Assembly (NCBI GenBank): GCA_963842525.1
Contig: CAWJGT010000003.1
Location: 352,001 to 416,000, forward strand
Source: an uncultured Holophagales bacterium
GTDB lineage: Bacteria; Acidobacteriota; Thermoanaerobaculia; Multivoradales; UBA5704
Length of the DNA stretch: 64,000 bases
Reading direction: 5' to 3'
Shown piece by piece: positions 3,590 to 15,140 of this stretch. Below the pieces are notes generated by a model that worked only from the letters and a program-made list of their open reading frames with translations, did not search any database and was not told the origin of the DNA. How positions within the stretch are numbered: position 1 is the stretch's first letter; each line of letters opens with the position of its first letter. The translations under genes and the position numbers were made by a program.

Positions 3590-4205
3590 AGAGTTGTCGC
3601 GACGTCGCTGTGCTCGCACTTGGGGTAACCCGCGGTGTCGCAACGAACGGCGACCACGTCTCTGCGAAGCTCGCTCTGTCGCAGGTCATCCTACGCTGCG
3701 ACAGTGTCCCTTTGCACGGAAAGCCCGCCGATAGCCGCCAGCGAGCCGTGCCCCGGCTTTGTCGCGCCGTCAGCCCGCGAACGCCCAGCGGCGAGAAGGC
3801 CGCGACAGTGTCTCCTAGCGCTGCGACAAGACTACCACACAATATGACAGAGCCGGGAAGCTTTAAAACAGAGTCCGCCGAGCTGCGACAAGGCAAGGAC
3901 GCTACGCGACAGATCTCGATGACTCTGAGACATTGTCCGGGCATGCCGCGACGAATCGTTGAGCCGCTGCGACAGAACGCCGAAACACTGAAACGGAATC
4001 TCGGGACTCTGTGGTGAACAATCGACATATTGCGACAATGCAAGCAGCCTCCAAGCTTTTGCCAGGAGACATGCGACGATGTAAGCTCACTCTGTCGCAG
4101 AGGAAGGAGACCGTGCGACAATGCGAGCTTGCACTGCGACAGCGTGAGGTGACGCTGCGACATTGCCCGAAGATCTGCGACGCATCGCCGAGATGACGCG
4201 ACAAA
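3590..4205. repeat. Degenerate 21-bp-period array with GCGACA/TGTCGC core
   Basis: GAC(A/G) cores at 3804, 3825, 3846, 3887, 3908, 3929, 3950, 3971, 4034, 4075, 4117, 4138, 4159, 4179, 4200; inverted TGTCGC copies at 3595, 3636, 3677, 3760. Confidence 0.75.
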
Positions 4206-4528
4206 GAGAGCAGCGCTGCGAGCGCGGGCGTCCCGCCCGCCTTCACCAGGGCGTGGGGCCGAGATCAAGCCCTGCACGACCCAAGGCGAAGAAGTACCTC
4301 GACCTCGCGAGTGCTGCTCGCCTTCCGGAGCGCAGACTCGAGACTGGGTACGCCGGGAGTGCATATCGCGACGTAGAAGACGCCGGAGATCCTCCGCCCA
4401 GGTGCTCCGATCTCACGGAAGGAAATAGGGATAGGCCCCCTCTTGCGTGAAGGCGTTCGGAACCTTATCTGGTCGCCAGAGACGTCTAAGCGCGATCCGG
4501 GATGCCTTATCGTCCTTCGCAGGTCGCG

Positions 4529-4558
4529 TTGACTCCTGCCGGAGGGAGGGGGTATGCT
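4529..4558 (+). promoter_or_regulatory. Sigma70-type promoter upstream of the cassette array (Pc-like)
   Basis: TTGACT-18 bp-TATGCT, about 105 bp before the first GTTRRRY core at 4663. Confidence 0.55.
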
Positions 4559-4795
4559 CTCTAAGTTGAGGAAGAAGAACACGTTGAAGGGAAGACGCGA
4601 GGAACGGCGCCCCGTCTTATACGGCGCGTAGAAGCCCATAAAGAGAATCGCTGAGTAAGGCGGTTGAACTAAACCGCTACGCGGCGGTGCCCTCCGAGCC
4701 GAATTTCGCTTTTTTTAGCCGATTTCTTCTCCAAGACGACAAACGTTTCTGATCGGTCTACCTTTCGGGCTGTACTTTCCCGAAAGGAGGACCCC

Positions 4796-5650
4796 ATGAC
4801 AGAGATGCGTCGACGGATGGAAGAGGAGTTGAAGCTGCGGGGCTACAGCCCGCGCACACATGAGGCGTACATCCACTGGGTACGCCAGTTTGCCGCGCAC
4901 TATCGTCGGCCGCCCGAGCAGATGGGAGCTGAAGAGGTTCGCGCCTACCTGGTCGATCTTCTCGAAAATCGTAAGCTGGCGCGGTCGTCGTTGGTTCAGG
5001 CCTTGTGCGCTTTGAAGTTTTTCTACAGCCAGGTGCTGCATCGGCCCTGCGAGGTGGAGAATCTACGCTTTCCCCGGCAAAAGAGGAAGTTGCCAACGGT
5101 TTTGAGCGAGCCGGAGGTGAGGCGGTTGTTGGAGGCGGCCGAGGACCTGCGGGAGCAGGCGATCCTGATGACGCTGTATTCGGCGGGCCTGCGCCTGGGC
5201 GAATTGCTGCACCTGCAGGTTAAAGACATCGACAGCACGAAGATGCAGATTCGAGTTCGTCAGGGCAAGGGTTCCAAGGATCGCAACGTCGTGCTGTCGC
5301 GGACTCTGCTGGAAGTACTGCGACGCTACTTCCTGCAGTACAGGCCCGAGGTTTGGCTGTTTTATGGCGAGACGCCGCAGCGGCCACTCAATGAACGGAC
5401 TGTCCAGCGGATGGTGCGTCGGCTCAGTGAAAAAGCTGGCCTGCGCCAGGGAGTCAGCACCCACACGCTGAGGCATAGCTTCGCCACCCATCTTTTGGAG
5501 CGTGGCACGGAGGTACCGTATATCCAGGAGCTTCTCGGGCATCGCAGCGTGCGCACCACGATGCTGTATACGCGGGTCAGTCCGCGAGCGCTGAGCAAGG
5601 TGATCAGTCCCTTGGACCGGCTGGACTGGAGACCTCGCGAGTTGACATAG
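4796..5650 (+). CDS. Tyrosine recombinase (IntI-related N-terminal SAM domain; lacks the IntI-specific insertion)
   Basis: Catalytic R (GLRLGE), K (GKGSKDR), HTLRH, LGH and Y (TMLYT); 284 aa. Confidence 0.93.
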   Translation: MTEMRRRMEEELKLRGYSPRTHEAYIHWVRQFAAHYRRPPEQMGAEEVRAYLVDLLENRKLARSSLVQALCALKFFYSQVLHRPCEVENLRFPRQKRKLPTVLSEPEVRRLLEAAEDLREQAILMTLYSAGLRLGELLHLQVKDIDSTKMQIRVRQGKGSKDRNVVLSRTLLEVLRRYFLQYRPEVWLFYGETPQRPLNERTVQRMVRRLSEKAGLRQGVSTHTLRHSFATHLLERGTEVPYIQELLGHRSVRTTMLYTRVSPRALSKVISPLDRLDWRPRELT

Positions 5651-5659
5651 GACGGTGCC

Positions 5660-6856
5660 GTGTCGGGCACCTCCCGCTTGGAGGTGGCCCACATCTTCCG
5701 TCTCTATGGTGAGGAGTATCGGCAAGGACACCGACTCTCCCGGCCGCAGTTGCGGGCCATGCGGGCCATCGAGATCTGCCGCACCGCCTCTCTGGGCGGG
5801 CATGTGGACGAGTGTGACCAGTGCGGTGTACGCACAATCAGCTACAACTCCTGTCGCAACCGACACTGCCCGAAATGCCAGGGCCTGGACAGGGATCTCT
5901 GGTTGGAGCAGCGCTGTGGCGAGTTGCTGCCGGTGCCGTACTTCCATGTCGTATTCACAGTTCCAGAAGAGCTCAACCCCCTGGCGCTTGCCAACCCCAA
6001 GTGGTTTTACGACCTGCTCTTCGACTGTGCCGCCAAGGCGCTGCTGGAGATCGCTGCCGATGCCAAGCACCTCGGAGCGCGCATCGGGGTGCTGGCAGTG
6101 CTGCACACCTGGAGCCAGACGCTGCTGCTGCATCCGCATCTGCATTGCATCGTACCGGGAGGAGGCCTGTCGCCGGACGGGCAGAGGTGGATCGCCAGCC
6201 GGCCCAACTACTTCCTGCCGGTCCAGGTGTTGTCGCGGCTGTTCCGCGGCAAGTTTCTGGCCCAGGTCAAGGCGGCTTGGAAGTCCGGCCAGTTGCGCCT
6301 ACCAGAGACTCTGCGCGATCCGTTCACCTTCCAGAACCTGCTCGACCGGCTCTACCGCAAGACCTGGGTGGTTTACAGCAAACCCCCCTTCGGAGGCCCG
6401 GAGCAGGTGCTGGCCTATCTGGCCCGCTACACTCACCGGGTGGCGATCTCCAATCATCGCCTCCTCCGTCTGAAAGATGACCAAGTCACCTTCACCTACA
6501 AGGACTATACCCAGGGCGGCCGGGTGCGAGAAATGACGCTGCCGGTGGATGAGTTCATCCGCCGCTTCCTGCTGCACGTGCTTCCTGAGCGCTTCGTGCG
6601 CATCCGCTACTACGGCCTGTTGTCCAACCGCCAACGTGCGGGCAACCTGGCCCGGTGCCGCGAGTTGCTCGGTGCCCCTCCGTCGGAGCTGTCAGTTGCC
6701 GAGCCACCGGCCGGCGAGGGCTGGCAAGCCAGGCTGGTCCGGCTGACAGGCAAGGATCCGACCCTTTGTCCACAGTGCGGGCGGGGCCACCTGCGGCGGG
6801 TCGAGGAATTGCCTCCCGCTTGCTCGGCGGCCCGGCCTGGGAGGTCGCCGCCGTGA
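5660..6856 (+). CDS. IS91-family rolling-circle (HUH, Y2) transposase with Zn-binding N-terminus
   Basis: CRNRHCPKC zinc motif, HPHLH HUH motif, YLARY Y2 motif. Confidence 0.93.
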   Translation: MSGTSRLEVAHIFRLYGEEYRQGHRLSRPQLRAMRAIEICRTASLGGHVDECDQCGVRTISYNSCRNRHCPKCQGLDRDLWLEQRCGELLPVPYFHVVFTVPEELNPLALANPKWFYDLLFDCAAKALLEIAADAKHLGARIGVLAVLHTWSQTLLLHPHLHCIVPGGGLSPDGQRWIASRPNYFLPVQVLSRLFRGKFLAQVKAAWKSGQLRLPETLRDPFTFQNLLDRLYRKTWVVYSKPPFGGPEQVLAYLARYTHRVAISNHRLLRLKDDQVTFTYKDYTQGGRVREMTLPVDEFIRRFLLHVLPERFVRIRYYGLLSNRQRAGNLARCRELLGAPPSELSVAEPPAGEGWQARLVRLTGKDPTLCPQCGRGHLRRVEELPPACSAARPGRSPP

Positions 6857-7119
6857 GACCTGCGCAGGTCCCTGTGGCGTTGCGACTCTCCCAGAGAGTA
6901 TTGGAGGAGGTGTATCCTCCCGCGATTCTGCGGTACAATGGTGCAAACGAAATCGCTGTGGGAGGAGCCCTTGGCCGGCCACCAACTCCAGGACGAGGCA
7001 TTCCGGTACCGCCAGCATCGCATCGCGGGGCTTTCCCGGAGGTGTGGGCGGTCGAGGCGCGGCTTTCGCCTGCGAATTGATTTGCCATAGCCCGGCAGGT
7101 CGGACTCCCCCGCGGTTTC

Positions 7120-7216
7120 GCTCAACCGGCGTCTATCCGCGGTCCTCCCCTGAGCAGGCGGTGGACTCCGGAGCTGTGTTGTGGGAGGACCCCGGATAGA
7201 CGCTTACACGTTGTGC
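7120..7216 (+). other. Atypical attC-like recombination site (no extrahelical bases)
   Basis: R'' GCTCAAC; 21-bp arms GCGTCTATCCGCGGTCCTCCC / GGGAGGACCCCGGATAGACGC with one mismatch; R' GTTGTGC. Confidence 0.65.
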
Positions 7217-7254
7217 GACAGAAAGATAGAGCTGGTAACCTCCAAGAGTGACGC

Positions 7255-7821
7255 ATGACAGGCAATCGAGCACTTCGGAACCTTACGGATGACCTCACTG
7301 CCAAGCTCGAGGACGTGGAATTCCTCGCCTGCTACTCAGCAGCTATAGCACGCGTCGTTCGGCAGCGCGAGAGATGGGCCAAGTGGCTGGTCGCTGTCGC
7401 CGCATGCGTACCATTCCTTGCTCGTCTCCGGGCAATCTCAGGACCTACCGTCGACTGGCTGGTGGCGATCGTACCTCTGTTGGCGATTGGACTTCCCATT
7501 TGGAATCCAGAGAAAACTATTGAAGCTGCTTCCACACTTCACGGCCGTTATCTTCAGGCGCTCCCGCCACTTCGAGCGCTTTGGCGCAGACTACGAGACT
7601 TCGAGGGCCCGAGCGAGGCGACCGGCACCCTTGTTAGCGAGGTCGCGGGTGAACTGAAGACTTTGGAACAGGAACTTGCGTCGATGAAATCGGAGGCATC
7701 AACCCTGCCGGACATCCGCAAGCTCAAACTGCGGTGCAAGTCTTCAGTTCCCAAGTACAGCCTTCTCCAAACAGAACCACCCCGGGGGCCTGAGGATGTT
7801 GGATACAAGATGGGCAACTGA
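7255..7821 (+). CDS. Cassette gene: two-TM membrane protein (SLATT-like architecture)
   Basis: Two hydrophobic helices followed by a coiled coil. The cassette starts G/TTGTGC (7210) and ends with the complementary GCACAAC (7834). Confidence 0.6.
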   Translation: MTGNRALRNLTDDLTAKLEDVEFLACYSAAIARVVRQRERWAKWLVAVAACVPFLARLRAISGPTVDWLVAIVPLLAIGLPIWNPEKTIEAASTLHGRYLQALPPLRALWRRLRDFEGPSEATGTLVSEVAGELKTLEQELASMKSEASTLPDIRKLKLRCKSSVPKYSLLQTEPPRGPEDVGYKMGN

Positions 7822-7833
7822 GGCGGTATGGTC

Positions 7834-7895
7834 GCACAACCCAGCTCCTCCAGCGGACGGCTAACGCCGCACGCTGAGGCGCGGCAGCGTTGGGC
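7834..7895 (+). other. attC site
   Basis: GCACAAC...CCT(C)CAGCG...CGCTGAGG...GTTGGGC with an extrahelical C in L''. Confidence 0.85.
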
Positions 7896-8020
7896 GCAAG
7901 GATAGCGCTGAATTTCGGCCTTACGGAAGAAGTCCTGTTGTTGGCCTCAAAGCGAAGGTACCTCGTCGCATCACCGTCCACCCGAATCGGCGGGATGGGC
8001 ACCTACCGAGGAGGAATGCC

Positions 8021-8395
8021 ATGTCACACCGGATTAGCCGTTCCTCAGTTCTGATCTGTCTCACTCTGCTGGTTCTCTCGCCACTCAAGGGTAACGCTGT
8101 CTCAGCTACCGCGGACGACCCGCCGGAATCAGTTACGGCCGTGGTGACTCCGACGGTGTCGCCGGACTCTGAGAACCTGGTCGAGGGCTTGCCCGGCCTG
8201 TTCGAGAGAGGGGTGTGCCCCAAGGACGGCCTGGGAGTCCCAGCGCCGATCCAGACGGTGGACCAATGCGCCACCTGTACTCCCTCTATTCCCTGCCCTC
8301 CTGGGATGTGTAGGTACTGCGCTGGTGGACCTTACTGCAATTCATCAACCCAGTGCACGTGCCAGTGCATTCCACCATGCTTCGAACCTTTGTGA
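8021..8395 (+). CDS. Cassette gene: secreted protein with Cys-rich C-terminal domain
   Basis: Signal-peptide-like N-terminus, RBS GAGGAGG, 10 Cys in the last ~43 aa. Cassette bounded by GTTGGGC (7889) and GCCCAAC (8398). Confidence 0.7.
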   Translation: MSHRISRSSVLICLTLLVLSPLKGNAVSATADDPPESVTAVVTPTVSPDSENLVEGLPGLFERGVCPKDGLGVPAPIQTVDQCATCTPSIPCPPGMCRYCAGGPYCNSSTQCTCQCIPPCFEPL

Positions 8396-8397
8396 GC

Positions 8398-8451
8398 GCC
8401 CAACCCCGCCGATCGAGCGGACGGCAAGCCGCCGCTCATCGGCATAAGCGT
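8398..8451 (+). other. attC site interrupted in its R' core (GT^T) by a group II intron; continues at 10488
   Basis: GCCCAAC...GCCGAT(C)GAGCGG(A)CGGC / GCCGCCGCTCATCGGC with both extrahelical bases, then GT|intron|TGAGA. Confidence 0.8.
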
Positions 8452-10487
8452 GTGCGCCAAGACAAGCTTGGCGCTTCTTGCAGGGTGTAAGTCCCTGCCG
8501 GGTAAGGTCTAACCAACCACCCGTACCGAGTGTTGCAGATCTGGCGGAGGAGAGTCGACGTCGACGAACCGAACAAGAGGTCTGGAGCGTACACAGGGAA
8601 CCATGTAGGCCGTAAGGGAGACCGCACCTCCCCCAGGTCTGGTACAGCCCCGAAAGCGCCGATTACAGATGCAGGCGGCGATCGTTTACGTTTGCGAGAA
8701 GCCCACGCGAAGGAATCGCTTTGGTGAGATTCTGGAAGCCTGCCGGGGTCATCAGGACATGGCATGCATGGAGAGGAGCGTCGAAGAACTTGGGAGACCC
8801 CATTGATTCCTGCACTCTTAGAGAGGCAATCTGCAAGGCGCGAGGCTGGCTAGGCACAGAAGGGGAAACCCGGACCCAGAGAGAATGCCTGGCGCCTAAA
8901 CGGAGGATCGACGAGAGATGACAGGTAGGCGACCTGAACCGAAAAGGCAAGGGAGACTGAAGATCATTGGGGAGTCGGATCAGCCCATAGTACTCCGAGA
9001 ACGGGAGAGCCGTTCACATGGGGAAGGAGCTGACGGGAACCCGTAGCCCGCAAAGGAAACATGACCCAGATGCGACAGGCTGGACAACTCATGCCAACCT
9101 CCCTGCGGGGAATAGCGAACAAGGCAAGCTCTGACAAGAACCACCGTTTCGGCAATCTCTTTGGTCTGCTGACCATGACGTTCCTTCTGTCCTGCTGGGA
9201 GCGAGTCAACAAGAAAGCTGCCAGCGGCGTGGATCGGGTTTCGGCCCGGGCTTACGCGAAGGATCTGGCGGGAAACGTAAGAGACCTTTGGGAGCGTGTG
9301 AAGCGGGGTAGTTACCGGGCGAAGCTGGTCCGGCGACGTCACATTCCGAAGGAAGGGAGTACAGCGACTCGGCCACTGGGGATCCCGGCGGTGGAGGACA
9401 AGCTGCTCCAGATCGCAGTCTCCCGCATTCTCAATGCCATCTACGAGCCGATCTTTCTGCCGTGCAGTTGGGCATACAGGCTCGGCCGTAATGCGCGGGA
9501 AGCAGTGCGGACGCTGAAACAGGAGCTTCAGTTTGGTTGCTACGGTTACGTTGTGGAGATTGACATCAAGGGGTTCTTCGACCGGATCGACCATGAGAAG
9601 CTCATGGAGATGCTCGAGCTGAGAATCAACGATCGGCCGTTCCTGCGGCTGATCTGGAAATGGCTCAAGGCGGGAGTATTGGAAGAGGGTGGGAAGGTGA
9701 TCCACCCGGACACGGGCTGTCCGCAAGGTAGTGGGATATCACCCGTGCTTGCCAATATCTACCTTCACTACGTTCTGGACCTTTGGTTCACGGAGGTGGT
9801 GAAGCCCCGGTGTAAAGCGCGGGCCTTCATGTGCCGGTTTGCGGACGATGTGGTGTTCGCCTTCCAGTGGCATGAGGAGGCCGAGCGGTTCTTCCGGGTC
9901 CTGCCGAAACGGCTGGCGAAGTACGGGTTGGAGCTTTCGGCGGAGAAGAGCCGGATGGTGCGGTTCAGCCGGTTCCAACTGGGCAAGAGCTCGGAGAGGT
10001 TCGACTTCCTCGGGTTCGAGTTCCGCTGGGTGAAGGACCACAAGGGAGTGGCCCGGGTGACGTGCCGGACATCGCGCAAGCGGCTTCGGGCGTCGTTGAC
10101 CAGGGTGACCGAGTGGATCAAGGCCGAGCGGCACCTGCCGGTACGCCAGTTGGTGGGGGCGTTGAACGCGAGGCTTCGTGGGCACTATAATTACTACGGG
10201 GTGATCGGCAACTACGCAAGCCTATGCTCATACTTCAATCAAGCGAAACGGCTGCTGATGAAGTGGTTGGGGAGGCGGAGTCAAAAGAGCCGGATGAGCT
10301 GGGTGAAGTTCAGCGCCCTGCTGAAGCGATTTCCACTGGAGGAACCCTGGATCGCGGAGAGTCGGCATCGGCAGATGGTTCTTGTCTGAGTTGCTGAGTG
10401 CGGAAGCGAGGGTAACCGAAGAGCCCGGTGCGGAAAAACCGCACGCCGGGATCTGTGCGGGGGGCGCTTCGGCGTCCCTACCGCGAC
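8452..10487 (+). mobile_element. Group II intron
   Basis: 5' GTGCG; domain V GAGCCCGGTGCGG...CGCACGCCGGGATC; domain VI ending CCCTACCGCGAC; internal RT ORF. Confidence 0.9.
9061..10389 (+). CDS. ltrA: Group II intron reverse transcriptase/maturase (no endonuclease domain)
   Basis: RPLGIP, DIKGFFD, PQGSGISP and RFADD motifs; X domain LRGHYNYY. Confidence 0.93.
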   Translation: MTQMRQAGQLMPTSLRGIANKASSDKNHRFGNLFGLLTMTFLLSCWERVNKKAASGVDRVSARAYAKDLAGNVRDLWERVKRGSYRAKLVRRRHIPKEGSTATRPLGIPAVEDKLLQIAVSRILNAIYEPIFLPCSWAYRLGRNAREAVRTLKQELQFGCYGYVVEIDIKGFFDRIDHEKLMEMLELRINDRPFLRLIWKWLKAGVLEEGGKVIHPDTGCPQGSGISPVLANIYLHYVLDLWFTEVVKPRCKARAFMCRFADDVVFAFQWHEEAERFFRVLPKRLAKYGLELSAEKSRMVRFSRFQLGKSSERFDFLGFEFRWVKDHKGVARVTCRTSRKRLRASLTRVTEWIKAERHLPVRQLVGALNARLRGHYNYYGVIGNYASLCSYFNQAKRLLMKWLGRRSQKSRMSWVKFSALLKRFPLEEPWIAESRHRQMVLV

Positions 10488-10722
10488 TGAGAGCACGAGA
10501 TGGATCCCCGAGGTTCTATTCAACACGGCTAAAGCAATCCTTCGGGAAGCTCAGCGGGCGCTGGATGCTCCGCGGCCAGAACATGTGATGTGGGACAGCA
10601 CCAGCCCGCCGGCACCAGTCGCTCGACCAATTCGGCCTACAACTCGTCTGCTCCGCTATGCTCTCCAGGCCAAGCTGCCTGTTGCGGAGGACCTCTACCT
10701 GGAGCTGTGGTAGACTCTGGTT

Positions 10723-11034
10723 ATGGTCGAGGTTCTCGTCCGAATCAAGCGTGCGGTCCTTTCAGGGCATTATGCCTTCAGCGAGAAGGCGCGAATTGAG
10801 ATGGAGGTCGACGGCCTCACTGACCTCGATGTCGCTGAATCCATCCTCAACGCAGTCGCCATCTACAAACGCCTGCGGTCGCGAAGTCCCCTTCATCGTG
10901 GCCAATTAGAGTACCTCTACGTGATCCAGTCCACAAACCTCGAAGGTATGATGATATACTCGAAGGGCAAGCTCGTTCGCGAGCATGGCGAAGATCATTT
11001 CTACTTCCTAATTTCCTCGAAGAGAGCTCTATGA
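10723..11034 (+). CDS. DUF4258-like putative toxin
   Basis: 103 aa with a FSEKARIEM...DVAESILN pattern; overlaps the downstream zinc-finger gene. Confidence 0.6.
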   Translation: MVEVLVRIKRAVLSGHYAFSEKARIEMEVDGLTDLDVAESILNAVAIYKRLRSRSPLHRGQLEYLYVIQSTNLEGMMIYSKGKLVREHGEDHFYFLISSKRAL

Positions 11035-11312
11035 GAACACCGCTGAGTAACGAAGGATTTTCAGTTTCCGTATGCCCGACGTGCGGTAGCTCGGCTATTC
11101 GGAAGATTTCTGGAAGCTGGTCCGGAAACTATAAAGGCGAGACCTATAGCGTGAAGGCGCTAGAGTATTACGCCTGCCCAAATTGTGACGAGAAGGTCTA
11201 TCCGCCTGAGGCGATGCGACGGATTCAACACGCTTCTCCAGCTTACCGGAAATCGGCTGCTCGGCGAGCAGCGCGGAGGGCGCCCAACCCGGGGCCTCAA
11301 GCGGACGCCTGA
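11031..11312 (+). CDS. YgiT/MqsA-type zinc-finger protein
   Basis: CPTCG...CPNCDE; the reading frame runs into the attC. Confidence 0.75.
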   Translation: MRTPLSNEGFSVSVCPTCGSSAIRKISGSWSGNYKGETYSVKALEYYACPNCDEKVYPPEAMRRIQHASPAYRKSAARRAARRAPNPGPQADA

Positions 11313-11342
11313 CGGCGCCGCTTATGCCCGATCCCGTTGTGC
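11282..11342 (+). other. attC site
   Basis: GCCCAAC...GCCT(C)AAGCGG(A)CGCC / GGCGCCGCTTATGC...GTTGTGC. Confidence 0.85.
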
Positions 11343-11541
11343 GCCAAGGTCAGGATTGCACTGGGGACGAGTGGCCCCGTCGTCCCGACACCCTGTTCCG
11401 GCACCGGCATGTGGTTACGGCACCCCCGAGAATGACCGGCTACCCGACAAGGGGCGCCGAAATTCCGGTGGTGATGTCCTCGATGGCCCTCGATGGCCCA
11501 AGGGCTTGCCAAGCTCTCCTTCAGTGGCGTATAGTCAGGTC

Positions 11542-11860
11542 GTGTGGTTCGTAGAGACCTCTGTCTTTTCTGGCCAGCTCTATGAGCAACTCCCTGATGA
11601 CGACTACCGCTCTCTTCAACTGGCTCTTACTTTGCGGCCCGAGCAAGGAAAGCTGATCCCAGGCAGTGGCGGGTCTTCGCAAGATTCGTTGGGCTCTTCG
11701 TGGCAAAGGGAAGCGGGGTGGCCTCCGATTGATCTACTACTGGGATGCGGGCGAGGATGTGATCTACTTCCTCTACCTTTATCCGAAGAACCAGCAGGCG
11801 AACCTCAGGCCCAATCAGCTCAAGCAACTGAAGAAGGTCATCGAGGAGGATTTAAAGTGA
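11542..11860 (+). CDS. RelE/HigB-family toxin (apparent +1 frameshift near 11672)
   Basis: VWFVETSVF...LIPGSG joins GLRKIRW...GKRGGLRLIYY...YPKN in the next frame. Confidence 0.8.
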
Positions 11861-12195
11861 AGGACTCTGATTTTCAGCAGATGCTTGCCAGTGTCAAGGA
11901 GGCAGGACGTATCAAGCGCGGGGAACAGAAGCCTGCGCGTAAGTTCGAGGTAAGAGCGGAAGACGTGAAGGCAATTAGAGCTATGCTCAACAAGTCGCAG
12001 TCTGAGTTTGCTCTTATGATCGGTGTGAGCGTATCTACTCTCCAGAATTGGGAACAAGGGCGGCGACAGCCGGAGGGTCCAGCGCGAGCCCTCCTGAAGG
12101 TGGCTTCCGTGAATCCGCGAGCTGTTGCATCCGCACTGGATCCGAGCCAGGCGCCCAACCCGGGGCCTGCAGCGGACGCCTTGCGGCGGCGCTGA
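11857..12195 (+). CDS. HigA/NadS-like XRE helix-turn-helix antitoxin
   Basis: SQSEFALMIGVSVSTLQNWEQGRRQPEGPA; GTG start overlaps the toxin stop; C-terminus reads into the attC. Confidence 0.85.
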   Translation: MKDSDFQQMLASVKEAGRIKRGEQKPARKFEVRAEDVKAIRAMLNKSQSEFALMIGVSVSTLQNWEQGRRQPEGPARALLKVASVNPRAVASALDPSQAPNPGPAADALRRR

Positions 12196-12214
12196 GGCCC
12201 ATCGCCCGTTAGGC
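12153..12214 (+). other. attC site
   Basis: GCCCAAC...GCCT(G)CAGCG...CGCTGAGGC...GTTAGGC. Confidence 0.85.
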
Positions 12215-12235
12215 CTCACGACGACGGTAACTACT

Positions 12236-12724
12236 ATGGCGCTTGAGTACAGAGCAGCCCTCCCGGACGATGTGGCCGAGTGCCTCGATGTGCGCGGCAG
12301 AACGCGCGAGAACGCGATCTCTGCGGAGGGTCTCAGGGCCAGGGGCATCACCCTGCAGTCTTGGGCCGAAGACATTCGCCAGGGCGCTCTCCCAGGCCAT
12401 GTGTGTCTTGCGGACGGCAAGATCATTGGGTTCTGCTTTGGAGTCAGAGAGTCTGGGGAAGTCGCTGTGCTGGCACTCCTACCGGTGTTCGAGAATCAAG
12501 GCATCGGCAGGTCTCTCCTGAATCGAGTAGTTCAGGAGCTCAGGACGTTCGGATTCAACAGGTTGTTCCTTGGCTGCTCTGCAGACCCTTCGATGCGATC
12601 GTACGGCTTCTATCGTCATCTCGGCTGGCGCTCCACCGGCACGTTTGACGCTGCGGGGGACGAGGTTCTTGAATACTTCCTCGAGGAGCACGGGCCGCAG
12701 GTTTATCGTGCCGGAGTTGCGTAA
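12236..12724 (+). CDS. GNAT family N-acetyltransferase (cassette)
   Basis: ENQGIGRSLL acetyl-CoA motif; GFYRHLGW. Confidence 0.88.
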   Translation: MALEYRAALPDDVAECLDVRGRTRENAISAEGLRARGITLQSWAEDIRQGALPGHVCLADGKIIGFCFGVRESGEVAVLALLPVFENQGIGRSLLNRVVQELRTFGFNRLFLGCSADPSMRSYGFYRHLGWRSTGTFDAAGDEVLEYFLEEHGPQVYRAGVA

Positions 12725-12757
12725 AGCTGGGGCAGTCCGGTGAGGCCTATTCGAGCT

Positions 12758-13243
12758 ATGAAGCTTCTAGGTGTCCTGATCCGGGCAGTGACGTACTCAA
12801 CGCTTTTCATTGGTGTACTGCTCATCTACTTGCCAGCGCAAGCGCTGTCTTGGGCTGGCGTCGCCAGGCCTGCCCGGCTCGGGCTTCCAGAGATCCTTGG
12901 AGGTATGGTCAGCGCCAGTGGGGCGGCGCTCGCCGTGTGGTGCATCCTGAGCTTCGCCTTGATCGGCCGTGGGACTCCGGCGCCCTTTGACCCACCGCGT
13001 CGTCTCGTGGTGCGGGGACCTTACCGGTACGTGCGAAATCCGATGTATTTGGGCGCCGGCCTGGCGCTCGCCGGTGCCGCGTTGTTCTACAGGTCGAGCG
13101 TGCTCCTCGCGTATGCCGGATTGTTCCTTCTGCTCATGCACCTGGCTGTAGTGTTGTATGAGGAACCAACTCTCCGGCAGACCTTCGGCGAGGACTACGA
13201 AGCGTACTGCAAGCGGGTTCGCCGATGGTGGCCTACGCTGTGA
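12758..13243 (+). CDS. Isoprenylcysteine carboxyl methyltransferase / PEMT family membrane protein
   Basis: GTPAPFDPP...GPYRYVRNPMY...EEPTL...FGEDY motifs. Confidence 0.85.
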   Translation: MKLLGVLIRAVTYSTLFIGVLLIYLPAQALSWAGVARPARLGLPEILGGMVSASGAALAVWCILSFALIGRGTPAPFDPPRRLVVRGPYRYVRNPMYLGAGLALAGAALFYRSSVLLAYAGLFLLLMHLAVVLYEEPTLRQTFGEDYEAYCKRVRRWWPTL

Positions 13244-13287
13244 TGAAGGTTTGAAGGGGTGTCTGGAGAGTCCTGCGCGAGCCCTGG

Positions 13288-13398
13288 CCCCTCACCCCCG
13301 GCCCCTCTCCCATCCGCACTCCCTTCCCCCGGGAGAGGGGGGAAATACACGATCAGGAAGGTGTGAGTGCTGATGGGAGAGGGGCCCGGGGTGAGGGC
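13288..13398. repeat. REP-like palindromic element (CCTCACCCCC..GCCCCTCTCCCATC...GGGAGAGGGG)
   Basis: Inverted pair between convergent genes; the same family recurs at 26255, 27989, 29193 and 30533. Confidence 0.75.
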
Positions 13399-13457
13399 TT
13401 TCCTGGGACCGCCTCAACCTTTCCAGACACTCTCTGAGAGGCTCGTGCTGACTGACC

Positions 13458-15140
13458 CTACGGCACGATCCAGTCGCCGACCGCCTCCACCCCTCCCGGC
13501 GCTCCCGGGGCGAGGCGAACGAGATAGCAGCCTTTGGAGGCAAAGCGCTGGCCGGGGCCGAGGCTCAGGCGGGGGTAGACGCCGGGATTCGGCATTCTTT
13601 CGGTTTCTCGCTCGACGGATTCGAGGAAGAGATCGCGGGAGAAGCGGTCCGCCAGGTGCATGAGGGCCGTGTCGGCCAGGGAGAGGGCGAGCCAGGTGTC
13701 GAGTTGGAGGCGCTCCGGTCCTGGCTTGAGGCCGCGCGCCCGCAGCCAGGCCCTGACCCGGTAGGCGTGCGGCCCCTCCTTCCCCGGGAGGCTCCAGCGC
13801 CAAGTCAGGAGGGCCTGTTCGCGCCACATTGCGGGCAGGCGGGACAGGTCGCCGACGAGAGTGGAGGAGAGATAGAGCCGCGGGTGCGGGCCGGGCGTGG
13901 CCGGCAGGCTGGCCAGGTCTTGGCCGGAGAGCCAGAGGACGAGCGCGGTTGGTCGTTTCTTCCCGAGCAGGTCGGTCCAGAAGGCCGGGCCCGGTGCGAA
14001 GACCCGGTCTTCGAGGTGCGCCGTCCCGGCGAGGGATTGGCGGAGAGCCCGGGCCGCAGCTTTCCCGGCCTCGTCGCGGTAGACCTGGACGATCTTGCCC
14101 TTGCTATCCCGCAGGTGCTGCGCCACGGTCGCGGCCTCGACGGCGAGGCCGGGGGAGAGGTAGACCGTCCAATCCCCGGGCGGCACGGTCACGGGCAGGT
14201 CGGTCGTGGGGAAGAGGCACGGCACGGCGGCCTGCTCACAGAAGGTATGGACCGGCTTCCAGTCCCCCTCTCCCAGCCCGCCGAGCATGGCGAAGACGGG
14301 CTGTTCCCGATAGCGTGCCGTGAGCTGGGCGGTCCAGGTGGATGCCGGTCCCGTGAGCTCCCAGAGGTGGAGCTCCCAACGACGGTAACCTCCGGCGAAG
14401 GCCTCCTCTTCGCCTGCCGGCGGCCAGGGGCGCTGGAGACGCCGCTCGACGTCGGCGCTTTTCCAGCGGACGTAGGCCTCCATGACGTCGAGCATGGCCC
14501 GGCGATGGCCCGAGTCGGCTCCTGCCGTGACTACTGTTGCGAAGTGGATGGTGGTCTCATCCACCCCTGGATCAGGAGCGGCGGAGAGGGCCTTCAGGTA
14601 GGCGATGAGGTGCCCCATCGCCTCCGGGCCCAGCCGGTAGCGCGGCATCAGGGGATCGAGCTCGTGCCCCTCGCGCAGAGTCGCGGCCAGGGTCGCGTCC
14701 GTGTAGGGAGGACGGGTCCGTGGGCCCCGGACGGTCGCCCAGGAGCGAGCAGAAAGGTTTTCCTGGAACAGCTTGCGGAACAGGTCGGCCCGCTGTGCAG
14801 GATCGCTTCCGAACAGTGCGGGCGCGGTGATCGGCGGTACGACCGTGGTGCCCTCGACGCTGCCGTAGCCGCTCCGGCGATGGCAGGAGGCGCAGCTTGC
14901 GGCGGCGCCTTCGAGCGGGATGCCACCCTGGACGATGCCGCGCAGCGGCTGTCCCGAGGGGAGGATGCCGTCGCGGTAGAGGCGCCGGCCGGCCTCACCC
15001 CGGGATTGAAATCCCGGGCTAATTCCTGCCACCCCTGCGGGTTTGGATTCGAGAGCCCGGAGGGCGCCATTCGGTAGCCCAGGGTGTAAACCCTGGGCGA
15101 GCAGGAAAATCAGCAGCAGTGTGGCGATACGAACGGTCAC
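13458..15140 (-). CDS. Exported cytochrome c fused to a periplasmic-binding-protein-like domain
   Basis: CASCH heme motif and signal peptide; GTG start overlaps the SCO stop (GTGA). Confidence 0.75.
   Translation of the reverse strand: MTVRIATLLLIFLLAQGLHPGLPNGALRALESKPAGVAGISPGFQSRGEAGRRLYRDGILPSGQPLRGIVQGGIPLEGAAASCASCHRRSGYGSVEGTTVVPPITAPALFGSDPAQRADLFRKLFQENLSARSWATVRGPRTRPPYTDATLAATLREGHELDPLMPRYRLGPEAMGHLIAYLKALSAAPDPGVDETTIHFATVVTAGADSGHRRAMLDVMEAYVRWKSADVERRLQRPWPPAGEEEAFAGGYRRWELHLWELTGPASTWTAQLTARYREQPVFAMLGGLGEGDWKPVHTFCEQAAVPCLFPTTDLPVTVPPGDWTVYLSPGLAVEAATVAQHLRDSKGKIVQVYRDEAGKAAARALRQSLAGTAHLEDRVFAPGPAFWTDLLGKKRPTALVLWLSGQDLASLPATPGPHPRLYLSSTLVGDLSRLPAMWREQALLTWRWSLPGKEGPHAYRVRAWLRARGLKPGPERLQLDTWLALSLADTALMHLADRFSRDLFLESVERETERMPNPGVYPRLSLGPGQRFASKGCYLVRLAPGAPGGVEAVGDWIVP
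14999..15098. repeat. REP-type doublet inserted in frame in the cytochrome c gene
   Basis: CCCGGGATTGAAATCCCGGG and GCCCAGGGTGTAAACCCTGGGC hairpins. Confidence 0.6.

What the first reader, a model, noticed from the sequence alone, without database searches (positions are those of the whole stretch)
4529..13243. Integron-like array headed by a self-cassetted tyrosine recombinase + rolling-circle HUH transposase instead of IntI
Seen: a sigma70 promoter (4529-4558), then a GTTRRRY core at 4663, the recombinase + IS91-type Y2 transposase, an attC-like hairpin (7120-7216), and co-oriented cassettes with four canonical attC sites. The module obeys the cassette rule: its left end GTTGAACTAAACCGC is complementary (13/15) to GCGGTTTCGCTCAAC at its right end. 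The next two cassettes follow the same rule (GTTGTGC/GCACAAC, GTTGGGC/GCCCAAC). Established: attC recombines as folded ssDNA, HUH transposases generate ssDNA, and IntI carries an extra insertion that reads extrahelical bases, which this 284-aa recombinase lacks. Inference: either a selfish element that moves as a cassette through attC arrays, or a non-canonical integron in which the HUH enzyme supplies ssDNA and the recombinase shuffles cassettes.
Basis: partly seen in the sequence, partly recalled or inferred. Interest (0 to 1): 0.82.

Follow-up and report, generated by a model that had tools for sequence, protein, structure and literature searches.

The report
Cassette-mimicking IS91 element in integron array
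A small jumping gene that carries both a rolling-circle transposase and an integron-integrase-like recombinase has landed exactly at the entry point of an integrase-less gene-cassette array, and its ends look like those of an integron cassette.

Summary
Window 4664-7213 is a discrete 2.55-kb insertion sequence. It has 3 copies at 98-100% identity in this genome plus one truncated copy. It encodes an intact IntI-like tyrosine recombinase (YR) that lacks the IntI-specific insertion, and an IS91-family Y2 HUH transposase.

It does not replace IntI as head of the array. It is inserted at the GTT core that ends a ~315-bp promoter-bearing, attI-like repeat (12 copies found; 6 head attC arrays). All 4 assembled insertions use that spot.

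Downstream lie four covariation-supported attC sites. A degraded canonical intI lies on another contig.

The YR+Y2 pair is widespread: 39 of 401 genomes sampled from the phylum, and alphaproteobacterial plasmids. Its left end (GTTGAACTAAACCGC plus a small hairpin) is conserved. Insertions sit at GTT(A/G) cores, and several abut attC hairpins in either polarity.

GTT at both ends plus end palindromes is also the standard IS91 layout, so sequence cannot tell which enzyme integrates the element.

Verdict: a new variant of a known kind, an IS91-YR element that targets integron recombination sites. The "non-canonical integron" reading is not supported.

The parts
4345..4663 (+). attI-like, promoter-bearing repeat ('up-family') that ends in the GTT core. 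It is the target of the insertion, not part of the mobile element.
   Evidence: nhmmer finds 18 hits in the genome, of which about 9 are full or nearly full length. In an alignment of 12 copies the -35/-10 hexamers, the GCGTAGAAGCCC and TCGCT blocks and the terminal GTT are conserved. Downstream sequence differs from copy to copy from the GTT onward. No conserved hairpin was found, no Rfam match, and no match in 200 other genomes of the class.
4529..4558 (+). sigma70-like promoter TTGACT-18-TATGCT inside the repeat, reading toward the GTT core
4664..7213 (+). IS91-family insertion sequence of the YR-carrying subgroup. The boundaries lie within the shared GTT(G), so they are uncertain by 1-4 nt.
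   Evidence: Three copies at 98-100% identity plus one truncated copy at 92%. Identity begins at GTTGAAC and ends at ...CACGTTG in all three full copies. In run X1, Logan contigs break at 4662/4663 and 7216, with depth ~9.5 inside against ~3.1 in the left flank.
4663..4690 (+). Left (terIS-like) end: GTTGAACTAAACCGC plus a small CCGC/GCGG hairpin
   Evidence: The identical 16 nt occur in G393, where the proteins are only 47-53% identical. The motif is found by regex in 14 of 29 loci from other genomes and in variant form, by eye, in 11 more, with compensatory stem changes.
4796..5650 (+). IntI-like tyrosine recombinase, 284 aa, lacking the IntI-specific insertion
   Evidence: TIGR02249 scores 238.9 bits (cut-off 265) over model positions 4-177 and 236-315 only. 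The best PDB match is VchIntIA 2a3v, in two stretches that skip chain residues 180-239. The R, K, HxxR, H and Y catalytic residues were read directly from the translation.
5660..6856 (+). IS91-family Y2 HUH transposase, 398 aa
   Evidence: PF04986 and PF14319; NF033538 at 464.5 bits. The HPHLH and YLARY motifs were read from the translation.
7112..7126 (+). Subterminal right arm GCGGTTTCGCTCAAC, complementary to the left end at 13 of 15 positions
   Evidence: Sequence. Equivalent arms occur in G393 and in two plasmid copies. The simulated junction folds better as the bottom strand.
7120..7216 (+). Right-end hairpin (oriIS-like and attC-like) followed by the right-junction core GTTGTGC
   Evidence: 17.6 bits with the same box spacing as local attCs but without their bulged column. 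A solo copy of the hairpin lies at C3:183075-183163.
7214..7895 (+). Cassette 1: ORF 7255-7821 (no Pfam or NCBIfam hit) and attC 7834-7895
   Evidence: attC at 74.4 bits.
7893..8451 (+). Cassette 2: ORF 8021-8395 (Cys-rich, apparent signal peptide, no family hit) and the 5' part of its attC, from 8398
   Evidence: 53.1 bits.
8452..10487 (+). Group II intron with an RT/maturase ORF (9061-10389), inserted between GT and TG of the attC R' core, on the same strand as the cassettes
   Evidence: Rfam RF02005 and RF00029; RVT_1 and GIIM. Three genomic copies aligned with flanks; joining the exons restores GTTGAGA, GTTGGGC and GTTGGCC.
10488..11342 (+). Cassette 3: ORFs 10723-11034 and 11031-11312 (MqsA-like antitoxin) and attC 11282-11342
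   Evidence: 71.9 bits.
11340..12214 (+). Cassette 4: RelE/HigB-like toxin, apparently frameshifted near 11660 (C-terminal part at 11666-11860), an HTH antitoxin ending at 12195, and attC 12153-12214
   Evidence: 68.2 bits.
12237..13243 (+). GNAT acetyltransferase and PEMT/ICMT-like methyltransferase, with no attC behind them. This marks the end of the array.

Best explanation
Window 4664-7213 is an intact, recently active insertion sequence of the IS91 family. It belongs to the subgroup that carries a tyrosine recombinase gene directly upstream of the Y2 HUH transposase.

It has inserted at the GTT core between an attI-like, promoter-bearing repeat and the first cassette of a pre-existing cassette array that has no integrase gene. 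It is a parasite of that platform, not its integrase.

Shown:
- the element's boundaries, copy number and both intact enzymes;
- conservation of the gene pair and of the end sequences across distant genomes;
- repeated use of the same attI-like core in this genome, and of GTT(A/G) cores, some at the foot of attC hairpins, elsewhere.

Inferred mechanism:
- The HUH transposase nicks at the foot of the right-end hairpin and at the left GTT, and releases a single-stranded circle, as shown for IS91.
- In that circle the 15-nt left end pairs with the subterminal right arm. Together with the long hairpin, this gives an attC-shaped fold without extrahelical bases, more stable in the bottom strand.
- The IntI-like recombinase, which lacks the domain that reads extrahelical bases, then helps to pair or exchange this fold with GTT cores of attI-like and attC sites. 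The element lands behind the platform promoter, as a cassette would.

I put about 0.9 on 'IS91-YR element inserted at an attI-like core' and about 0.4 on the recombinase being the integrating enzyme.
For: - Copies and boundaries.
- Enzymes.
- Site use: all 4 assembled insertions (3 full, 1 truncated) sit at the same core of the repeat, whose empty copies end in GTT(A/G/C) followed by unrelated sequence. Run X1 holds a further junction to a C1-type repeat that is not in the assembly.
- The repeat heads attC arrays: 6 of 12 copies have an attC model hit within 5 kb downstream on the same strand, against 52 hits in 9.95 Mb overall.
- attC family: 89% of cells paired against 76% when shuffled, 15 of 21 pairs with changes on both sides, 0 of 500 shuffles as high.
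- Distribution: the pair occurs in 39 of 401 genomes, several with multiple copies. Seventeen of 20 fetched copies have the transposase next to the recombinase. The same pair is annotated on alphaproteobacterial plasmids.
- Left end conserved.
- Targets in G393: GTTAG in 5 of 6 and GTTAT in 1 of 6.
- attC-like hits that share their core with the element's left end: L026, L024, L041, L045 and L056.
- Simulated junction fold: bottom strand -39.6 against top -33.1 kcal/mol here, and -28.1 against -21.0 in G393.
- IS91 precedent: only the bottom-strand circle is inserted (PMC13181058, introduction read).
Against: - Canonical IS91, IS801 and IS1294 have the same layout without any recombinase: a terIS palindrome next to a cleavage tetranucleotide, oriIS palindromes, and a GTTC/CTTG target (PMC13181058). 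The HUH enzyme alone could therefore explain the GTT at both ends and the target choice.
- Four of the five attC-abutting insertions in other genomes lie at the R'' side in inverted polarity. IntI-type cassette insertion does not do this.
- Most insertions in G393 (4 of 6) and all fetched copies in G279 and G258 have no attC-like hit nearby. The model is tuned to this genome's attCs, so this is a weak negative.
- The right-end hairpins of elements from other genomes did not score with the attC model at E <= 1. The window's hairpin reaches only 17.6 bits against 53-74 for real attCs.
- No circle or empty-site read was seen, and contigs cannot show rare forms.
- That the repeat is an attI is inferred from its behaviour only.
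Confidence: 0.6

Rival explanations
1. This is ordinary IS91-type rolling-circle transposition. The Y2 transposase alone excises and inserts the element next to a GTT(A/G) target. The hairpin is simply oriIS and the left GTT is the terIS cleavage site. The recombinase is an accessory factor, for example a regulator of end cleavage like Orf121 of IS91, or a resolvase of multimers. The likeness to a cassette is convergence, because both systems act on single-stranded hairpins with a cleavage site at the foot.
For: - The IS91 family layout and target tetranucleotides match, with T always in second position, and an upstream accessory gene in IS91 tunes terIS cleavage and insertion (PMC13181058; passages and introduction read).
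- Many insertion sites share only a GTTAG-like core.
- Insertions at attC feet occur in both polarities.
- The attC model scores the hairpin weakly here and not at all in other genomes.
Against: - A 4-5 nt target cannot explain 4 of 4 assembled insertions falling at one position of a 12-copy repeat in a 9.95-Mb genome.
- That repeat end shows no conserved hairpin, whereas about 50 attC hairpins with GTT feet were not used.
- The recombinase is intact and kept next to the transposase across phyla, and is closest to the one recombinase family known to act on folded single strands.
Confidence: 0.3
2. This is a non-canonical integron. The element's recombinase, fed with single strands by the HUH enzyme, is the enzyme that inserts and shuffles the cassettes of this and the other arrays, using the repeat as its attI.
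For: - No protein in the assembly reaches the IntI cut-off; the best IntI-model matches are the element's own recombinase, and the only canonical intI is a wreck.
- The element occupies the first position of 3 of the 6 repeat-headed arrays.
- The hairpin has the box spacing of local attCs.
Against: - The local attCs keep a bulged column, the feature read by the IntI insertion that this recombinase lacks.
- Arrays and repeats are older and more diverged than the 98-100% identical element copies.
- The decayed intI sits beside an array of the same attC family.
- Near-identical attCs in different arrays share only ~140 nt, not whole cassettes, so there is no sign of recent cassette movement.
- Homologous elements thrive in genomes and plasmids with no attC array at hand.
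Confidence: 0.06
3. The module is a passive cassette. A canonical IntI once captured the module as a cassette through its attC-like hairpin, and the copies were spread by that IntI.
For: The cassette-like boundaries, the position directly behind the attI-like core, and the orientation shared with the cassettes.
Against: - The copies are nearly identical and so recent, while the only intI is heavily decayed.
- The hairpin lacks the bulged base.
- The same family is multi-copy in genomes at non-attC sites.
Confidence: 0.04

Closest known systems
IS91 family insertion sequences (IS91, IS801, IS1294)
   Same: A Y2 HUH transposase with an N-terminal zinc-binding domain; two unlike ends; a small palindrome at the upstream (terIS) end next to a cleavage tetranucleotide; palindrome(s) at the downstream (oriIS) end, flanked by a T-at-position-2 target tetranucleotide; no obvious target duplication (PMC13181058).
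   Different: It carries an IntI-like tyrosine recombinase upstream of tnpA, where canonical members have nothing or orf121. Its 15-nt left end is complementary to a subterminal right arm. It shows strong preference for one attI-like core here and for attC feet in several other genomes. I could not obtain the canonical IS91, IS801 or IS1294 end sequences, so the ends were not compared base by base.
IS91-family elements with an upstream integrase/XerD gene (ISWz1 and others listed in ISfinder)
   Same: The same two-gene architecture. The list of ISfinder names is recalled and comes from no call. ISWz1 as an IS91-family member (PMC11322121, passages) and an 'IS91 + XerD' pair beside tet(X) (PMC11194056, passages) were seen.
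   Different: Those papers treat the two genes as separate mobile elements. They describe no end structure, no IntI-likeness and no attI/attC targeting. I could not test whether this element is a close relative of ISWz1.
Integron gene cassettes and IntI
   Same: GTT cores at both boundaries, an imperfect hairpin with R''/R'-like boxes at the 3' end, a position directly behind an attI-like core and promoter, and a recombinase whose best solved relative is VchIntIA.
   Different: The recombinase lacks the IntI insertion and falls below the IntI cut-off. The hairpin has no bulged bases. The unit encodes its own enzymes. Relatives insert at the R'' side and at non-attC sites.
Other attC-targeting mobile elements: group IIC-attC introns and IS1111-attC elements
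   Same: Mobile elements that home to attC sites. Two group II introns in this same genome do so at the R' core. Intron behaviour is taken from PMC7923331 (passages). IS1111-attC is recalled only.
   Different: The enzymes differ (reverse transcriptase/ribozyme, DEDD transposase). No IS91-type element was linked to attC or attI targeting in the papers returned by my searches.
CALIN (cluster of attC sites lacking an integron integrase)
   Same: Four attCs with no intI within the window, and many small attC clusters across the genome.
   Different: Here, and at five other loci, the cluster is headed by a conserved promoter-bearing module ending in the recombination core. That module is not part of the CALIN definition.

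Membership tests
IS91 family | Y2 HUH transposase (Y2_Tnp domain plus zinc-binding N-terminus) | tested here: met
   PF04986 at 3.8e-67 and PF14319 at 1.2e-32. NF033538 at 464.5 bits, cut-off 125. HPHLH and YLARY were read from the translation.
IS91 family | Two unlike ends: a terIS palindrome next to a cleavage tetranucleotide, and oriIS palindrome(s) downstream of tnpA flanked by a target tetranucleotide | tested here: met
   Left end GTTG followed by a CCGC/GCGG hairpin. Right end a ~21-bp stem hairpin, a 9-nt spacer and GTTG. The family definition is taken from PMC13181058.
IS91 family | No target-site duplication | tested here: inconclusive
   GTT(G) stands at both junctions. It may be the terIS site plus the target, or a shared crossover core. 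Sequence cannot tell.
IS91 family | Mobility: several copies with different flanks | tested here: met
   Three full copies at 98-100% identity with different right flanks. Relatives are multi-copy in G393, G250, G279 and G258.
Integron integrase (IntI) | Score above the curated IntI model cut-off | tested here: not met
   TIGR02249 at 238.9 bits against a cut-off of 265; NF011946 at 166.8 against 435.
Integron integrase (IntI) | IntI-specific insertion between patches II and III, which reads extrahelical bases | tested here: not met
   Model positions 178-235 are unmatched. The alignment to VchIntIA skips chain residues 180-239, where the query has 18 residues.
Integron integrase (IntI) | Tyrosine-recombinase catalytic residues | tested here: met
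   GLRLGE, GKGSKDR, HTLRHSFAT, LLGH and MLYTRV were read from the translation and align with VchIntIA.
attC site (for the hairpin 7120-7216) | R''/R' boxes (RYYYAAC ... GTTRRRY) that pair, with an L-box stem at the usual spacing | tested here: met
   GCTCAAC ... GTTGTGC. The full-length model alignment shows the same spacing.
attC site (for the hairpin 7120-7216) | Extrahelical (bulged) bases in the stem | tested here: not met
   The bulged model column is deleted in the alignment. The stem has one mismatch and no bulge.
attC site (for the hairpin 7120-7216) | Score comparable to the genome's own attC family | tested here: not met
   17.6 bits against 53-74 bits for the four window attCs.
Integron / CALIN (for the array 7214-12214) | Two or more attC sites in one orientation, each behind an ORF | tested here: met
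   Four sites at 53-74 bits. The structure is supported by covariation.
Integron / CALIN (for the array 7214-12214) | Adjacent functional intI | tested here: not met
   No match over the cut-off in the 96%-complete assembly. The only canonical intI, at C9:1070.9-1073.95 kb, is split by an IS21-like insertion and lacks both termini.
attI site (for 4345-4663) | An unstructured site ending in GTTRRRY at which cassettes join, next to a cassette promoter | tested here: inconclusive
   Twelve copies end in GTT with unrelated sequence behind, and 6 are followed by attCs. There is no conserved hairpin and a conserved promoter. No intI is adjacent and no binding or recombination was tested.

The most novel reading that the evidence does not exclude
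IS91-YR elements are autonomous 'selfish cassettes'. The HUH transposase makes a single-stranded circle whose joined ends fold into an attC-like site without extrahelical bases. An IntI-like recombinase without the extrahelical-base reader then recombines that site with the GTT cores of attI and attC sites, and with secondary GTTRR sites. This would be a second, independent single-strand hairpin recombination system that parasitises integrons, and a candidate relative or precursor of the IntI/attC pair.
Probability: 0.3. Interest if true: 0.8.

Novelty: new variant of a known kind. Interest (0 to 1): 0.62.

Why it matters
The role of the tyrosine recombinase carried by one branch of the IS91 family appears to be unknown; none of the papers my searches returned addresses it. 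Here that recombinase turns out to be closest to integron integrases but without their hallmark insertion. The element's joined ends fold like an attC without bulged bases. The element lands again and again on the entry core of integrase-less cassette platforms and, in other genomes, at the feet of attC hairpins.

If the recombinase does the integrating, this is a natural experiment on what the IntI insertion and the extrahelical bases are for. It also bears on where the integron system came from.

On a practical level, relatives of this pair sit beside tet(X) and other resistance genes in Bacteroidota, so their target rules matter for tracing gene spread.

Even under the ordinary reading, integron recombination sites gain a third class of homing mobile element.

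Tried and rejected
- Is the module the array's own integrase? Rejected: repeat-headed arrays occur without it, it is younger than the repeats, and there is a decayed intI elsewhere.
- Is the ~315-bp repeat part of the element? Rejected: empty copies exist with unrelated downstream genes, and the repeat is far more diverged than the element.
- Is the repeat a known RNA? No Rfam match at E <= 0.1, and no conserved fold on either strand.
- Is the repeat an attC, or a cassette with an attC on its left? No attC model hit near 4300.
- Is the repeat a leftover 3' end of intI? No IntI motif in the translations of 4163-4639.
- Does the repeat occur in relatives? Not found in the 200 other genomes of the class that were searched.
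- Has there been recent cassette movement between arrays? Near-identical attCs share only ~140 nt, not whole cassettes.
- Circle or empty-site forms in public runs: only Logan contigs were on hand, and no joint between 7213 and 4664 was seen. Contigs cannot show rare forms. No RNA holder was listed.
- Does the TGCGACA/TGTCGCA motif cluster (window 3636-4156) belong to the platform? It is not consistently linked to the repeat: 5 clusters genome-wide, only this one beside a repeat copy.
- Literature: searches returned no paper that links IS91-type elements with attC or attI targeting, or that describes the recombinase's role. The reviews I remember as listing the integrase-bearing IS91 subgroup are not held, so that listing is recall. 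Supplementary files were not opened.
- Not attempted: a phylogeny of the recombinase with IntI and Xer, and a base-by-base comparison with the ends of IS91, IS801 and IS1294, because I had no reference sequences from a tool.
- Limits of the attC model: R1 is built from this genome's attCs, so blanks in other genomes are weak.

Full report
**What is at 4529-13243**

The ORF list and family scans show, all on the + strand:
- a 284-aa tyrosine recombinase (4796-5650; PF00589 and PF13495);
- nine bases later, a 398-aa IS91-family transposase (5660-6856; Y2_Tnp and Zn_Tnp_IS91; NF033538 at 464.5 bits, cut-off 125);
- two ORFs without family hits (7255-7821 and 8021-8395);
- a group II intron with its reverse transcriptase (Rfam RF02005 at 8488-8759 and RF00029 at 10419-10487; RT at 9061-10389);
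- two toxin-antitoxin-like pairs;
- a GNAT acetyltransferase and a PEMT-like methyltransferase.

**The module is a discrete, multi-copy mobile element**

- A DNA search of the window's own genome (9.95 Mb, 34 contigs, 96% complete) finds three copies at 98-100% identity and a truncated one at 92%.
- Aligned with flanks, the three full copies are identical from GTTGAAC (4663) to ...CACGTTG (7213/7214) and unrelated to the right of that.
- The element is therefore about 2,550 bp. Its boundaries lie inside a GTT(G) that stands at both junctions.
- Logan contigs of a soil metagenome run that holds 87% of the stretch break at 4662/4663 and 7216. They show about three times the flank depth inside the element.

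**What it is inserted into**

To the left, the copies are not unrelated. They share a more diverged ~315-bp sequence, window 4345-4663.
- A profile of it finds 18 hits in the genome, about nine of them full or nearly full length.
The sequence behind the GTT differs from copy to copy.
- Copies without the element run straight from GTT(A/G/C) into other genes, twice into TIR-domain proteins.
- All four assembled insertions of the element, and a further junction seen only in run X1, sit at this same core.
- Six of the 12 copies have an attC hit within 5 kb downstream on the same strand, against 52 hits in the whole genome.
- The repeat has no conserved hairpin and no Rfam match. It was not found in 200 other genomes of the class.
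- By its behaviour it is an attI-plus-promoter module. No intI lies beside any copy, and I could not test binding.

**The array**

- I collected attC candidates with a small profile and aligned 23 of them.
- The R-box, L-box and inner stem are strongly supported. 89% of cells pair, against 76% in shuffles; 15 of 21 pairs change on both sides; none of 500 shuffles reaches the observed values; slid controls drop to 29-41%.
- The covariance model built from them finds four sites in the window at 53-74 bits and nothing comparable elsewhere in the 64 kb.
- The second site is split. Aligning the three genomic copies of the group II intron shows that it runs from 8452 to 10487. Joining the exons restores GTTGAGA, GTTGGGC or GTTGGCC, so the intron sits between GT and TG of the R' core, on the same strand as the cassettes.
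- Typical IIC-attC introns sit at R'' on the bottom strand, opposite to the cassettes (PMC7923331, passages).

**Is there an IntI?**

- No match in the genome reaches the IntI cut-off. The best matches are the element's own recombinase.
- One canonical intI remnant exists at C9:1070.9-1073.95 kb. Its translation reads like IntI across the central region, and behind an IS21-like insertion it includes the IntI-specific ...ERKYP... stretch. The first ~93 and last ~100 residues are missing.
- Four attCs of the same family follow it.
- The arrays therefore have a conventional likely origin and no working integrase in the assembly.

**The recombinase**

- It scores 238.9 bits on the IntI model (cut-off 265), matching positions 4-177 and 236-315 only. 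It scores lower on XerC (194) and XerD (185).
- Its best solved relative is the Vibrio cholerae integron integrase (2a3v, 177 bits), ahead of archaeal XerA-type proteins (155 and 143 bits) and E. coli XerD (93 bits).
- The alignment to 2a3v skips chain residues 180-239, where the query has 18 residues.
- The catalytic residues are all present.

**The right-end hairpin**

- With filters off, 7120-7216 is the fifth best attC-model hit in the window (17.6 bits, E 0.01, and the model's E-values are rough).
- The alignment uses the whole model. The R'' box, spacer, stem, spacer and R' box are at the usual spacing, but the bulged column is deleted.
- So it is attC-shaped, without extrahelical bases, and far weaker than real attCs.

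**Relatives**

- The recombinase has matches at E <= 1e-40 in 39 of 401 genomes sampled from the phylum, often in several identical copies.
- Of 20 copies fetched from four genomes, 17 have the IS91 transposase directly downstream. Three copies in G250 have none within the 8 kb fetched.
- The same annotated pair stands on alphaproteobacterial plasmids.
- In G393, where the proteins are only 47-53% identical to the window's, the first 16 nt of the element are identical to the window's. The right end again has a complementary arm, a long hairpin, a short spacer and GTT.
- Across one locus each from 29 other genomes, the left-end motif with its small hairpin is found by regex in 14 and by eye in variant form in 11 more, with compensatory stem changes. 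Four have none.
- More distant members use related cores: ATT in G258, and GT followed by CA or TT in G279.

**Targets elsewhere**

- The six G393 insertions lie before GTTAG (5) or GTTAT (1). Only one has an attC-like left flank, and one more has an attC 2.5 kb downstream.
- Six of the 29 single loci have an attC-model hit at E < 1e-3 within the ~3.8 kb held. In four of them (L024, L026, L041, L045) the hit shares its core with the element's left terminus.
- Counting L056 of G393, five insertions abut an attC-like hairpin. One is at R' in cassette orientation and four are at the R'' side in inverted orientation.
- Nothing was found around the copies of G279 and G258 or the two plasmid copies.
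- The model is tuned to one genome's attCs, so these blanks are weak.
- The association with attC sites is real and far above background, but it is neither universal nor cassette-like in polarity.

**What is ordinary about it**

The 2026 study of IS91 (PMC13181058; introduction and passages read) describes the family as follows:
- it has two unlike ends;
- terIS has one subterminal palindrome next to a cleavage tetranucleotide (GTTC in IS801 and IS1294);
- oriIS has one or two palindromes, flanked by the target tetranucleotide (GTTC, CTTG or GTCC, always with T second);
- there is no target duplication;
- both single- and double-stranded circles form, and only the bottom-strand circle is inserted;
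- an upstream accessory ORF in IS91 tunes terIS cleavage and insertion.

The window's element fits this layout point by point. The 'cassette rule' is therefore not evidence for integron-type recombination.

**What is not ordinary**

- A tetranucleotide cannot explain four of four assembled insertions at one position of a 12-copy repeat.
- That position is an unstructured attI-like end, while some 50 attC hairpins with GTT feet went unused in this genome. Integration at attI is what an IntI-type enzyme prefers for a folded attC partner.
- The simulated circle junction folds into one long imperfect hairpin in which the GTT lies inside a 15-bp stem. It is more stable as the bottom strand (-39.6 against -33.1 kcal/mol here; -28.1 against -21.0 in G393), because several mismatches become G-T pairs.
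- These points favour a role for the recombinase. The inverted insertions and the many plain GTTAG targets favour the transposase. Sequence cannot decide.

**Verdict**

- The module is an IS91-family element of the recombinase-bearing branch, inserted into, not heading, an integrase-less integron platform.
- The two-gene pair has been noticed before (ISWz1; 'IS91 + XerD'). The ISfinder listing of the subgroup is recalled, not seen.
- None of the papers returned by my searches describes the IntI-likeness of its recombinase, the attC-like fold of its joined ends, or its homing to attI-like and attC cores.
- I rate it a new variant of a known kind, of moderate to high interest.
- The decisive experiment is a pair of catalytic mutants in a transposition assay with attI-like and attC targets.

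Noticed in passing
window 4345-4663; also G000 C1:382-696, C1:1080-1392, C3:1117204-1117507, C6:253988-254299, C9:136349-136660, C25:236178-236409 and others: A ~315-bp repeat family with a conserved sigma70-like promoter, ending in GTT. It stands at the head of attC arrays with no intI beside it, and several first cassettes encode TIR-domain proteins. Multiple integrase-less 'attI plus promoter' modules in one genome are unusual in themselves.
   Followed up: partly
window 8452-10487 (+); copies behind attCs at G000 C11:179877 and C25:512276: A group II intron with an RT/maturase is inserted between GT and TG of the attC R' core, on the same strand as the cassettes, in all three copies. Described IIC-attC introns sit at R'' on the bottom strand in the opposite orientation (PMC7923331).
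   Followed up: partly
G000 C22:19420 (+), C22:2745 (-), C13:6067 (-), C9:380392 (-); locus L097: An ORF-less group II intron of about 0.8 kb (Rfam RF02012 and RF00029), in four copies. Three start right after the GTT(A/G) of an attC R' core.
   Followed up: partly
G000 C9:1070900-1073950, with attCs at 1074623-1077562: A decayed canonical intI on the same strand as its cassettes. It is split by an IS21-like element with an IstB-type ATPase and lacks both termini.
   Followed up: partly
G000 C3:183075-183437 (-); locus L098: A copy of the repeat is followed by the element's right-end hairpin alone (93% identical), without the recombinase, the transposase or the R''-like arm. It may be a remnant or a mini-element; its origin is unexplained.
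   Followed up: partly
window 3636-4156: A dense cluster of the 7-mer TGCGACA/TGTCGCA: 11 copies in 520 bp, against a genome mean of 0.084 per kb. It lies just upstream of the repeat. Only five such clusters exist in the genome.
   Followed up: partly
window about 11540-11860: The RelE/HigB-like toxin gene of cassette 4 appears frameshifted near 11660. The N-terminal and C-terminal parts read in different frames, while the HTH antitoxin behind it is intact.
   Followed up: no
loci L058, L059, L060 (genome G250): Three copies of a related element keep the left end and the recombinase but show no Y2 transposase within the 8 kb fetched.
   Followed up: no
run X1, laid on window 4622-7216: Contigs join the element to a C1-type copy of the repeat and to a downstream sequence that is absent from the assembly. 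This points to a further insertion, or a strain variant, in the sample.
   Followed up: partly
window 14999-15097: Two adjacent Acido-Lenti-1 RNA matches on opposite strands (42.1 and 40.7 bits, gathering score 37).
   Followed up: no
window about 13270-13400: A long G+C-rich inverted repeat directly after the PEMT-like gene, seen by eye. It is not an attC by the model.
   Followed up: no
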